The notes under the pieces: generated by a model | Told to the model about the DNA's origin: nothing | Databases searched by the model: none | Seen by the model: only the letters and a program-made list of their open reading frames with translations | Part shown: positions 62,737 to 63,953 of the stretch, piece by piece | How the letters are laid out: every line of letters begins with the position of its first letter | Numbering within the stretch: the first letter of the stretch is position 1 | Sequence record: MN850590.1 | Direction: 5' to 3' (one strand) | From: Escherichia phage moha | Length of the DNA: 64,000 bases | Made by a program: the position numbers and the translations under genes

Positions 62737-63759
62737 ATGGCTGAATGGATAGATAATGAATTTGCTTATCGTGCGTTTTCTCACCTACCTCGTTTTAGAC
62801 AAATTAATAATTCAAGCACATTTAAATTAACATTTCGTTGTCCAGTTTGTGGCGACTCTCAGACAGATGCAATGAAAGCTCGCGGATGGTATTACGGTGG
62901 TACTCCTGGTAATGTACATTGCTATAACTGTCAATACCACAATACAATTTCCGGATACTTAAAAGAGTATGATGAAGAGCTTTATCGCGAATATCTAATG
63001 GAAGTTCGTAAAGAAAAAGCTAGAATGGAACCAAAGATTGAAAAGGTTCCTGAACATAAACCAGAACCGGAGAAAAAGACTATAAATTCTTTGCCGTCTT
63101 GTTCTCGTCTGGACAAGTTGCCTGAAGAGCATCCTATTGTGAAATATGTTAAGTCTCGGTGTATTCCTAAAGAATCATGGAACAGATTATGGTTCACATT
63201 AGAATGGCCCAAATTGGTCAACAAGATTCAACCTGGTACGTATAAGAAAGAGATTCCCGAACCACGTTTAGTTATTCCTATTTTTAATAAAGATGGGAAG
63301 GCCGAGTCATTCCAAGGACGTGCACTTCGTAAAGATGCTCCTCAGAAATATATCACTATTAAAGCGTTTGAGTCTGCAACAAAAATTTATGGTGTTGAAC
63401 GTGTTAAGGAAGGGGACGTCTGGGTAATGGAAGGCCCTATTGATAGTTTATTCATACCCAATGCAATCGCTATTACAGGCGGCTCAATAGATTTAGATGT
63501 GGTACCATTTAAAGAACGTCGGGTATGGGTAATGGATAATGAACCTAGGCATCCAGATACTATAGCTCGCATGAAGCGATTAGTTGATGCAGGCGAACGT
63601 GTCATGTTCTGGGACCGAGCTCCATGGAGATCAAAGGATGTGAATGATATGGTAATGAAAGAAAATGCAACACCACAAGAAATTTTAGAATATATGAAAC
63701 AGAATATTTCAAGTGGGTTGCATGCTAAAATGAGATTATCTCGTTATTCGAAGATTTAA
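62737..63759 (+). CDS. 61: DNA primase gp61
   Basis: 340 aa; zinc ribbon CPVCGDS...CYNCQYH; TOPRIM-like acidic residues. Confidence 0.9.
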   Translation: MAEWIDNEFAYRAFSHLPRFRQINNSSTFKLTFRCPVCGDSQTDAMKARGWYYGGTPGNVHCYNCQYHNTISGYLKEYDEELYREYLMEVRKEKARMEPKIEKVPEHKPEPEKKTINSLPSCSRLDKLPEEHPIVKYVKSRCIPKESWNRLWFTLEWPKLVNKIQPGTYKKEIPEPRLVIPIFNKDGKAESFQGRALRKDAPQKYITIKAFESATKIYGVERVKEGDVWVMEGPIDSLFIPNAIAITGGSIDLDVVPFKERRVWVMDNEPRHPDTIARMKRLVDAGERVMFWDRAPWRSKDVNDMVMKENATPQEILEYMKQNISSGLHAKMRLSRYSKI

Positions 63760-63953
63760 ACAAGTCCTATAATAGCAAAGGCCAAATCAACTACAGTATC
63801 CAATGGAACAGAAGGAACTATAATACCATGGGCAACTAACAATGGTGCAATCCCGAAGTTCCATGAAATAATGCCACCTACAACTATTGCAGCGATAGCA
63901 GTTTTCTTTTTATTGCCTTTAATAGCGTTGATTAACGATGGAAGTTTAAACAT
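63756..63953 (-). CDS. small membrane protein, convergent with gene 61
   Basis: 65 aa; strong SD AAGGAG 8 nt before ATG on minus strand; one long hydrophobic segment. Confidence 0.7.
   Translation of the reverse strand: MFKLPSLINAIKGNKKKTAIAAIVVGGIISWNFGIAPLLVAHGIIVPSVPLDTVVDLAFAIIGLV

What the first reader, a model, noticed from the sequence alone, without database searches (positions are those of the whole stretch)
63756..63953. Convergent minus-strand membrane-protein gene at the end of gene 61
This is the only credible minus-strand gene in the window. It has a strong SD (AAGGAG) and its 3' end overlaps the gene 61 stop by 4 nt, so it is a converging transcription unit in an otherwise unidirectional region.
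Basis: seen in the sequence. Interest (0 to 1): 0.35.

Follow-up and report, generated by a model that had tools for sequence, protein, structure and literature searches.

The report
Conserved late membrane-protein gene facing primase
The small reverse-strand reading frame at the end of the primase gene is a real, conserved T4-family phage gene for a 65-residue membrane protein that is probably switched on late in infection; it is already annotated as a protein of unknown function in related phages, though not in the T4 reference genome.

Summary
Window 63756..63953 (-) is a 65-codon ATG ORF with AAGGAG 5 nt upstream. Its stop shares 4 nt with the stop of gene 61 (primase, 62737..63759 +). The window is a Mosigvirus (RB69-like) genome.

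The ORF is RB69ORF029w, family phrog_2024, annotated "hypothetical protein" in hundreds of records. It is a real gene:
- Between genera, synonymous sites are saturated while proteins stay 45-55% identical.
- Informative dN/dS values are 0.08-0.36.
- Indels are in frame.
- It keeps the same opposite-strand position facing gene 61 in about ten T-even-type lineages.

Four more distant T4-like genera lack it. T4 has an ortholog at NC_000866 17738..17938 (+) that the reference record does not annotate.

Every lineage has the T4 late-promoter core 12-36 nt before the start codon (NATAAATA in 12 of 14; AATAAATA here at 63975-63982). That motif is under-represented in the window and otherwise sits almost only in front of genes.

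The predicted protein has a short basic N-terminus, one long membrane helix and a short C-terminal helix.

Best reading: a gp55-dependent late gene for a single-pass inner-membrane protein. Its function is unknown; an envelope or lysis-timing role is a guess. Ordinary and already catalogued, so low to moderate interest.

The parts
63756..63953 (-). Coding sequence of a 65-aa small membrane protein (ortholog of RB69ORF029w; family phrog_2024)
   Evidence: ORF listing. phrog_2024 matched over 1-65 of 65, E=1.9e-27. Annotated as a CDS in Mizar, G53 and RB69. Informative dN/dS values 0.08-0.36, with between-genus synonymous sites saturated. AlphaFold2 mean pLDDT 81, helices 3-11, 15-41 and 51-62.
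63959..63964 (-). Shine-Dalgarno sequence AAGGAG, 5 nt upstream of the ATG
   Evidence: Read from the sequence. A strong SD (AGGAG or GGAGG) is conserved in all 14 lineages examined. Annotated as a ribosome-binding site in phage Mizar.
63975..63982 (-). Putative gp55-dependent late promoter core AATAAATA (T4 consensus TATAAATA with A at -13). The inferred start site is near 63969.
   Evidence: The ATAAATA core is kept at the same place in 12 of 14 lineages despite different flanks. The motif occurs only 12 times in the window against 30.4 +/- 5.9 expected. A(-13) is the commonest natural variant, 9 of 50 T4 late promoters (PMC2988020). The start site is inferred from the -13 to -6 geometry and is not measured.
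63756..63759 (.). 4-nt overlap of the two convergent stop codons (palindrome TTAA)
   Evidence: The same overlap with gene 61 occurs in T4, Dhakavirus, Marfavirus, Gelderlandvirus and the second copy in TH41.
62737..63759 (+). Gene 61 (DNA primase), the early/middle gene that the ORF converges on
   Evidence: phrog_47, E=1e-101. 74% identical to T4 gp61.
63985..63990 (+). MotA-box-like GCTTTA of a divergent middle promoter for gene 56. Its -10 element, TAGAAT, lies 12 nt further on, just beyond the window end.
   Evidence: Read in the G53 and Mizar flank. RB69 middle promoter Pm:16038 (score 21.6) was predicted at the equivalent place by Nolan et al. 2006, supplement of PMC1524935.

Best explanation
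This is a genuine protein-coding gene, the Mosigvirus ortholog of RB69ORF029w (family phrog_2024). It encodes a 65-residue inner-membrane protein. The model shows a short basic amphipathic N-terminus (five Lys in residues 1-17, inferred to be cytoplasmic), one long transmembrane helix (about residues 15-41, carrying invariant Trp31-Asn32 and Pro37), a conserved His/Gln-Gly turn, and a short hydrophobic C-terminal helix with a conserved acidic residue (inferred to be periplasmic or at the membrane surface). It is most likely transcribed late in infection, from its own gp55/gp33/gp45-dependent late promoter (AATAAATA at 63975-63982) on the strand opposite to all neighbouring early and middle genes, and translated from a strong Shine-Dalgarno site. 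Early and middle transcription of gene 61 runs through it in antisense at early times. At late times its own transcript runs, with no recognisable intrinsic terminator, into the 3' end of gene 61. Shown: the ORF, its conservation, purifying selection, synteny, the promoter motif and its conservation, and the predicted fold. Inferred: late timing, N-in/C-out topology, and antisense read-through. The biochemical role is not known. My committed guess, at about 0.25-0.3, is an accessory factor acting in the inner membrane late in infection, affecting lysis timing, lysis inhibition or envelope integrity, rather than replication.
For: Coding: full-length match to phrog_2024, which all 10 diverse members also match. 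Invariant W31, N32, P37, G43, P47 and G63 across lineages that are 18-27% identical overall. In-frame 3-codon indels in natural variants. Between genera pS is 0.61-0.77 against pN 0.32-0.37, and informative dN/dS values are 0.08-0.36. No other gene overlaps it beyond 4 nt, so the conservation cannot be borrowed from another frame. Synteny: always on the opposite strand and convergent on gene 61, between 61 and 56 or dam, in Mosig-, Tequatro-, Gapriver-, Dhaka-, Mosuguk-, Gelderland- and Marfavirus and three further lineages. Late promoter: the NATAAATA core is conserved in 12 of 14 lineages, with a perfect TATAAATA in two, and a TATTAAATA variant in the other two. The motif-to-ATG distance of 29 nt falls within the 28-40 nt seen at the eight plus-strand motif-to-gene sites in this window. 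The motif is under-represented 2.5-fold. No sigma-70-like promoter was found on the ORF's strand upstream. Published support: A(-13) is the commonest late-promoter variant, and late transcripts run in either polarity (PMC2988020). Topology: the AlphaFold2 model, hydropathy and charge distribution, and the TM 21-41 prediction with negative SignalP for RB69ORF029w.
Against: There is no transcript, start-site, ribosome or peptide evidence. The one T4 dRNA-seq start-site table I found is not held as text. Nolan et al. 2006 did not list a late promoter here in RB69. The promoter octamer is a 7-of-8 match in this phage. The function has no support beyond timing and location: no Pfam, NCBIfam or PDB relative, and Foldseek returns only its own family. 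Two laboratory T4 derivatives have frameshifting indels in the ORF. If these are real, the gene is dispensable in the laboratory.
Confidence: 0.85

Rival explanations
1. The transcript matters and the protein does not. On this view the late promoter exists to make an antisense RNA that reads into the 3' end of gene 61, lowering primase expression late or stopping early read-through by transcriptional collision, and the ORF is incidental.
For: No intrinsic terminator-like site occurs on the minus strand for 8 kb downstream of the ORF, so a late transcript would be antisense to gene 61. The convergent position is conserved in every lineage. Both T4 strands are known to be transcribed at different times at several sites (PMC2988020).
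Against: The amino-acid sequence is under purifying selection, with invariant residues at 18-27% overall identity, in-frame indels and a conserved strong SD and ATG. An RNA-only element would not keep these. In Gaprivervirus TH41 a second paralog sits between the ORF and gene 61, and in L024 a 124-aa gene does, so direct overlap with gene 61 is not required. A secondary antisense effect alongside the protein is not excluded.
Confidence: 0.06
2. It is a holin-like or pinholin-like lysis protein that forms membrane lesions, as one UniRef entry names a T4-type member.
For: It is small, very hydrophobic and probably late-expressed. UniRef A0A482MZV5 is labelled 'Holin'.
Against: It lacks the charged, hydrophilic C-terminal tail typical of holins: the C-terminus is hydrophobic with no basic residue, and the charge is at the N-terminus. 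It is not next to the lysozyme gene e (which I assign to the 162-aa ORF at 12725) or any other lysis gene I could identify nearby. T-even phages already have the holin T, antiholins RI and RIII, and spanins (established knowledge). The single 'Holin' name is an isolated label among hundreds of 'hypothetical protein' entries, and no Pfam holin family matches.
Confidence: 0.08
3. It is a precursor, not a membrane protein. On this view residues 1-43 are a long signal peptide cleaved after the conserved Ala/Thr-His/Gln-Gly, with the invariant Pro at -6, releasing a 22-residue hydrophobic peptide into the periplasm or outer leaflet.
For: It has a basic n-region, a hydrophobic core, a helix-breaking invariant P37 six residues before invariant G43, and small residues at -3 and -1 in both subtypes (AHG, TQG, THG).
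Against: SignalP was negative and a TM helix at 21-41 was predicted for RB69ORF029w (supplement of PMC1524935). The hydrophobic core is about 24 residues, longer than in typical cleaved signals. AlphaFold2 models a continuous helix 15-41. The most conserved residues, W31 and N32, lie inside the putative signal, which would be unusual for a discarded leader.
Confidence: 0.06
4. It is a chance ORF or an annotation artefact carried from genome to genome.
For: It is short (65 codons), has no known domain, and is absent from the T4 reference annotation.
Against: All the conservation, selection and synteny evidence above. In particular, the T4 ortholog is intact although it is not annotated in the reference record, so propagation from that record cannot explain it.
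Confidence: 0.02

Closest known systems
RB69ORF029w / RB32ORF030w (family phrog_2024; 'hypothetical protein' in Mosigvirus, Tequatrovirus and related records)
   Same: It is the same gene. An identical protein sequence is already in GenBank and UniRef for many Mosigvirus phages. It has the same length, the same position and strand between genes 61 and 56, and the same predicted membrane helix.
   Different: Nothing differs for the gene itself. This analysis adds the conserved late-promoter core, the unannotated T4 ortholog, the two paralogous subtypes, and the restriction to T-even-type phages.
T4 late genes embedded in early regions (soc, e, gene 49, rI), each with its own late promoter
   Same: It has a short 5' leader, an NATAAATA octamer about 30 nt before the ATG, and a strong SD. 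The geometry matches the eight plus-strand motif-to-gene sites in this window.
   Different: In this window and in G53's annotation of the corresponding stretch, all other genes, including those preceded by late-promoter motifs, lie on the same strand as the early genes. This one is on the opposite strand and converges on an early or middle gene.
Small T4 envelope proteins Imm, Sp (spackle), RI and Ac
   Same: They are small phage-encoded membrane or periplasmic proteins that act on the infected cell envelope. Imm-like and Sp-like genes lie 2.4-3 kb upstream in this window (60754..61002 and 61066..61359).
   Different: I saw no sequence resemblance: no Pfam or NCBIfam family and no PHROG with an assigned function matches. 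I did not compare it directly with these four proteins. It is on the opposite strand and has a different inferred timing. Any functional link is a guess.
Type I toxin peptides (Hok, TisB, Ldr class)
   Same: It is a small, very hydrophobic single-helix peptide encoded convergently with, and overlapping, another transcript.
   Different: No dedicated antisense sRNA gene or promoter was found. It carries a phage late promoter rather than stress control, and it is a conserved syntenic phage gene rather than a mobile toxin-antitoxin cassette. No sequence match was found.

Membership tests
phrog_2024 / RB69ORF029w family | Significant full-length sequence match to the family profile | tested here: met
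   E=1.9e-27 over 1-65 of 65. All 10 diverse relatives also match.
phrog_2024 / RB69ORF029w family | 63-74 aa with the conserved core W-N-[FLY]...P...[HQ]-G...P...[DE]...G | tested here: met
   W31, N32, P37, G43, P47 and G63 are invariant in alignment A2.
phrog_2024 / RB69ORF029w family | Opposite-strand position convergent on gene 61, between 61 and 56 or dam | tested here: met
T4-type late genes (gp55/gp33/gp45-dependent) | TATAAATA-type octamer at -13 to -6 with an AT-rich downstream segment and no -35 element | tested here: met
   AATAAATA at 63975-63982, the A(-13) variant found in 9 of 50 T4 late promoters. The core is conserved in 12 of 14 lineages. The motif is under-represented and gene-associated in the window.
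T4-type late genes (gp55/gp33/gp45-dependent) | Transcript appears late and depends on gp55, gp33, gp45 and DNA replication | not testable with these tools
   No expression data could be read. The T4 dRNA-seq start-site tables are not held as text.
Holins | At least one transmembrane domain | tested here: met
   Helix 15-41; TM 21-41.
Holins | Highly charged, hydrophilic C-terminal domain | tested here: not met
   The C-terminal 22 residues are hydrophobic, with two Asp and no Lys or Arg. The basic cluster is N-terminal.
Holins | Encoded in or beside a lysis cassette | tested here: not met
   Its neighbours are primase (61) and dCTPase (56).
Holins | Timed lethal permeabilisation of the inner membrane | not testable with these tools
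   This needs expression and physiology experiments.
Sec signal-peptide precursor | Predicted cleavable signal peptide | tested here: inconclusive
   An A-H-G motif with Pro at -6 is conserved. However, SignalP was negative for RB69ORF029w, and the hydrophobic core is about 24 residues and modelled as one long helix.
Type I toxin-antitoxin | Dedicated cis-antisense sRNA with its own promoter that controls the toxin mRNA | tested here: inconclusive
   Only the read-through mRNA of gene 61 is antisense. No sRNA family was found in the window apart from the two tRNAs.

The most novel reading that the evidence does not exclude
T-even phages, including T4 itself, carry a conserved late-expressed inner-membrane protein gene that was never entered in the T4 reference annotation, so studies that rely on that annotation would not report it. 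It could be an unrecognised player in a classic T4 envelope phenotype, such as lysis timing, lysis inhibition or late superinfection exclusion. The two paralogous subtypes, found in tandem in Gaprivervirus TH41, might act as a pair.
Probability: 0.2. Interest if true: 0.55.

Novelty: already known. Interest (0 to 1): 0.27.

Why it matters
For this window it settles an annotation question: the single reverse-strand ORF is a real gene and should be kept. More broadly, the same gene sits intact and unannotated in the 310-bp "empty" gap between dam and gene 61 of the T4 reference genome (NC_000866, 17738..17938 +). Studies that rely on that annotation would not report it. It is conserved across the T-even-type phages sampled and probably late-expressed, which makes it a cheap and well-defined target for a knockout and a look at lysis and envelope phenotypes. 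It does not point to a new kind of system.

Tried and rejected
1. Function by homology led nowhere. Pfam, NCBIfam and PDB sequence searches, with the single protein and with the 10-member alignment, gave nothing. Foldseek against BFVD returned only family members and two 63-aa proteins, one from Enterobacter phage CIP9. Foldseek against PDB gave nothing meaningful.
2. The exhaustive profile search of 1.84 billion representatives found only 6 proteins, all in the family or fragments of it. There are no cellular relatives.
3. Literature searches for the ORF names, for T4 ribosome profiling or unannotated small proteins, and for antisense or late transcription at gene 61 found nothing on this gene. 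Miller et al. 2003 is not held. A T4 dRNA-seq preprint reports 150 phage start sites, 22 of them antisense, but its tables are not held as text.
4. Other minus-strand genes were rejected. Ten candidates have no PHROG match. The two in plus-strand gaps also lack an SD and lie in GC-rich, apparently non-coding stretches.
5. A terminator for the ORF: none was found on its strand. The hairpin seen downstream in Gaprivervirus CJ20 lies within the decayed remnant of a second paralog.
6. Dispensability: frameshifting indels in two laboratory T4 records may be sequencing errors, so I drew no conclusion from them.
7. The holin label was rejected on the membership test.

Full report
**What is there**

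The window is a T4-like phage of the genus Mosigvirus. The last 1.3 kb is 99.2% identical to Escherichia phage vB_EcoM_G53 and 95-99% identical to about 150 other records.

The flagged ORF is exactly as described:
- It occupies 63756..63953 on the minus strand, starts with ATG and encodes 65 codons.
- AAGGAG lies at 63959-63964, 5 nt upstream of the ATG.
- Its TAA stop shares the palindrome TTAA, and therefore 4 nt (63756-63759), with the TAA of the plus-strand gene at 62737..63759.
- That plus-strand gene is DNA primase, gene 61 (phrog_47, E=1e-101; 74% identical to T4 gp61).

**Is it the only reverse-strand gene?**

G53's annotation was read from gene 56 to gene 2 (record positions 15,800-81,000). 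I mapped the window onto the reverse complement of this stretch by matching gene positions, not by a whole-window alignment. Within it, only this ORF is annotated on the opposite strand.

Ten other minus-strand ORFs gave no PHROG match. Two of them, 4754..4978 and 14870..15061, sit in gaps between plus-strand genes. Both lack a Shine-Dalgarno sequence and lie in GC-rich stretches that look non-coding.

**Is it a real gene?**

Yes. Four lines of evidence agree.
- **Family match.** The protein matches phrog_2024 (unknown function) over its whole length, E=1.9e-27. It is annotated as a hypothetical protein in Mizar, G53 and RB69, where it is RB69ORF029w. tblastn finds it in 692 phage records.
- **T4 has it too.** The T4 reference NC_000866 shows an unannotated 310-bp gap between dam and gene 61. 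That gap holds an intact 66-codon ortholog at 17738..17938 (+). It is 52-55% identical to the window protein, has a strong SD, and shows the same 4-nt stop overlap with gene 61. The exact T4 protein sequence carries no NCBI or UniProt accession in the 15-billion-protein collection.
- **Conservation pattern.** An alignment of Mosigvirus- and T4-type proteins shows 25 invariant columns and natural in-frame 3-codon deletions.
- **Selection.** Between genera, synonymous sites are saturated (pS 0.61-0.77) while non-synonymous divergence is 0.32-0.37. Informative dN/dS values are 0.08-0.36. One 99%-identical pair (window against G53) has too few changes to be informative. No other gene overlaps the ORF beyond 4 nt, so this constraint belongs to this reading frame.

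**Distribution**

The same small opposite-strand gene, converging on gene 61, is present in every lineage below.

| Lineage | Example |
|---|---|
| Gaprivervirus | CJ20, TH41 |
| Dhakavirus | dhabil_90 (misnamed dCTP pyrophosphatase) |
| Mosugukvirus | PM2 gp030 |
| Marfavirus | PWKp18_00088 |
| Klebsiella phage | Roth80 |
| Gelderlandvirus | Proteus phage ABTNLPp2 |
| Metagenome contig encoding the protein named for Enterobacter phage ZX14 | L022 |
| Salmonella phage | SEA1 (L023) |
| Further metagenomic lineage | L024 |

- All ten diverse members tested match phrog_2024.
- Across them only W31, N32, P37, G43, P47 and G63 are invariant.
- A profile search finds 121 clusters at 90% identity. 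Every entry that carries a phage name is from a phage of enterobacteria, and none has a Pfam domain.
- An exhaustive search of 1.84 billion representatives finds nothing outside the family.
- The gene is absent from the corresponding locus in four more distant T4-like genera. In Krischvirus GEC-3S and Slopekvirus Matisse, gene 56 follows gene 61 directly. In Biquartavirus 31.2 and Lazarusvirus Konradin, other same-strand genes follow it.
- It is therefore an insertion specific to the T-even-type phages.

The family has two subtypes. Subtype A occurs in T4, Mosigvirus and Gaprivervirus. Subtype B occurs in Dhakavirus, Marfavirus and PM2, among others. Gaprivervirus TH41 carries both in tandem (L007 1501..1698 and 1707..1907). 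CJ20 keeps only a decayed remnant of the second copy.

**How it is probably expressed**

Upstream of the ATG, every lineage has the core of the T4 late promoter, although the flanking DNA and even the upstream neighbour (dam, gene 56 or others) differ.

| Octamer | Lineages |
|---|---|
| AATAAATA | This window, other Mosigvirus, some T4-type phages, Dhakavirus |
| GATAAATA | T4, PM2, L024 |
| CATAAATA | Gaprivervirus, Roth80 |
| TATAAATA (perfect) | Marfavirus, L022 |
| TATTAAATA (variant) | SEA1, Proteus phage |

- Of the 50 listed T4 late promoters, 32 are perfect TATAAATA and nine have A at -13, the commonest variant. Late transcripts can have either polarity (PMC2988020).
- T at -13 is also poorly conserved in RB69 and other relatives (PMC1524935).
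- In this window ATAAATA occurs only 12 times on both strands, against 30.4 +/- 5.9 in shuffles.
- Eight of the nine plus-strand occurrences lie 28-40 nt before an SD-ATG-ORF.
- Of the three minus-strand occurrences, only this one does, at 29 nt.
- No sigma-70-like promoter was found on the ORF's strand in the 88-bp intergenic region.
- The same intergenic region carries, on the other strand, a MotA-box-like GCTTTA, then 12 nt, then TAGAAT, ahead of gene 56. This matches the RB69 middle promoter Pm:16038 predicted by Nolan et al..
- Nolan et al. did not list a late promoter for RB69ORF029w, so I did not find that inference in the one paper I could check that lists late promoters for RB69.

The octamer and its conservation are shown. 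Late timing and gp55 dependence are inferred.

No terminator-like site lies on the minus strand for 8 kb beyond the ORF. A late transcript would therefore continue antisense into gene 61. This is an inference, and its significance is unknown.

**The protein**

- GRAVY is 1.24. All five basic residues lie in the first 17 positions. Only two Asp lie in the C-terminal 14 residues.
- AlphaFold2 on the 16-sequence alignment gives mean pLDDT 81 with helices at 3-11, 15-41 and 51-62.
- This means one membrane-spanning helix plus a C-terminal helix too short to span the membrane.
- Nolan et al. predicted TM 21-41 and no signal peptide for RB69ORF029w.
- The positive-inside rule suggests N-in, C-out.
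- Foldseek finds only family members (BFVD) and nothing meaningful in PDB.
- Pfam, NCBIfam and PDB sequence searches are empty.

**Function**

Function is unknown. Timing and location point to the envelope late in infection. I commit, at about 0.25-0.3, to an accessory role in lysis timing, lysis inhibition or membrane integrity.

- **Holin label.** One UniRef entry calls a T4-type member "Holin", but this fails two defining features. The protein has no charged C-terminal tail and is not in a lysis cassette.
- **Antisense-RNA-only explanation.** This is contradicted by selection at the protein level. It is also contradicted by lineages where another gene lies between the ORF and gene 61.
- **Cleaved-signal reading.** Conserved Pro at -6 and A/T-H/Q-G make this conceivable. 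It is disfavoured by the SignalP result, the length of the hydrophobic core, and the fact that the most conserved residues lie inside the supposed leader.

**Novelty and verdict**

The gene is already in the databases as a hypothetical protein (RB69ORF029w since the original RB69 annotation; phrog_2024). An identical protein is deposited for many Mosigvirus phages. The finding is correct but ordinary.

This check adds four modest points:
- a conserved late-promoter core upstream of the gene;
- restriction of the gene to the T-even-type phages;
- two paralogous subtypes, tandem in TH41;
- an intact ortholog that the T4 reference annotation omits.

Interest is low to moderate.

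Noticed in passing
L003 4239..4439 (+), which is T4 NC_000866 17738..17938: The T4 reference record annotates nothing in the 310-bp gap between dam and gene 61. 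The gap nevertheless holds an intact 66-codon ortholog with an SD, a GATAAATA octamer and the same 4-nt overlap with the gene 61 stop. The exact T4 protein has no NCBI or UniProt accession in the large protein collection.
   Followed up: yes
L007 (Gaprivervirus TH41) 1501..1698 and 1707..1907; L006 (CJ20) about 1700-1816: TH41 carries two tandem paralogs of the family: subtype A, then subtype B, which overlaps the gene 61 stop by 4 nt. CJ20 has only a decayed remnant of the second copy (it reads ATG TGA). Other genera keep either A or B, which suggests an old duplication with differential loss, or a pair that works together.
   Followed up: partly
window 4640-4980: About 340 bp of GC-rich sequence lies just downstream of the two tRNA genes (Met 4117-4191, Arg 4195-4271). 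It has no supported ORF, only a minus-strand ORF without an SD or a PHROG match. It includes a tRNA-T-arm-like GGTTCGAATCCCGG. There is no Rfam match, even at E<=1. It may be a stable RNA or a degenerate tRNA region.
   Followed up: partly
window 14874-15051: About 180 bp of GC-rich intergenic sequence lies between two plus-strand genes. It is covered only by a spurious minus-strand ORF (14870..15061). There is no Rfam match. The closely related G53 has a gap at the corresponding position, and its upstream gene is shorter (109 aa against 192 aa in the window).
   Followed up: partly
window 22906-22925 (+): Three overlapping late-promoter-like octamers (TATAAATA, AATAAATA, GATAAATA) are stacked 21-40 nt upstream of the 88-aa ORF at 22946..23212.
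   Followed up: no
window, whole: The heptamer ATAAATA is strongly under-represented: 12 occurrences on both strands against 30.4 +/- 5.9 in shuffles. Nine of the 12 lie 28-40 nt upstream of an SD-ATG-ORF. This is consistent with selection against stray late promoters.
   Followed up: yes
window 63985-64000 and beyond (L002 6254-6341): The 88-bp region between the ORF and gene 56 is a compact divergent promoter region. The late octamer for the ORF lies 2 bp from a MotA-box-like GCTTTA-N12-TAGAAT middle promoter for gene 56. This corresponds to RB69 Pm:16038 of Nolan et al. 2006.
   Followed up: partly
L019 1411..1611 (dhabil_90); P0107; P0145; P0032: Family members are misnamed in public records. 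The names include 'dCTP pyrophosphatase' (phage dhabil, and the UniRef entry for SEA1), 'DNA packaging ATPase' (Klebsiella phage SAKp28) and 'Holin' (UniRef A0A482MZV5).
   Followed up: no
L025 (T4_583L, MZ375356) and L026 (T4_ev240, LR597657), ORF region: Two laboratory-derived T4 records carry frameshifting 1-2 nt deletions inside the ORF; the T4_ev240 deletion is in an A run. This is either real loss of a dispensable gene or sequencing error.
   Followed up: partly
L020 597-626 (T4-type phage ASO78A); T4 L003 about 4245-4290: In T4-type phages a rho-independent terminator for the gene 61 transcript is annotated on the early strand, inside the first codons of the ORF (hairpin ATGGCA...TGCCAT followed by a T run). 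No equivalent hairpin is seen in the Mosigvirus window, where early transcripts probably read through into gene 56.
   Followed up: partly
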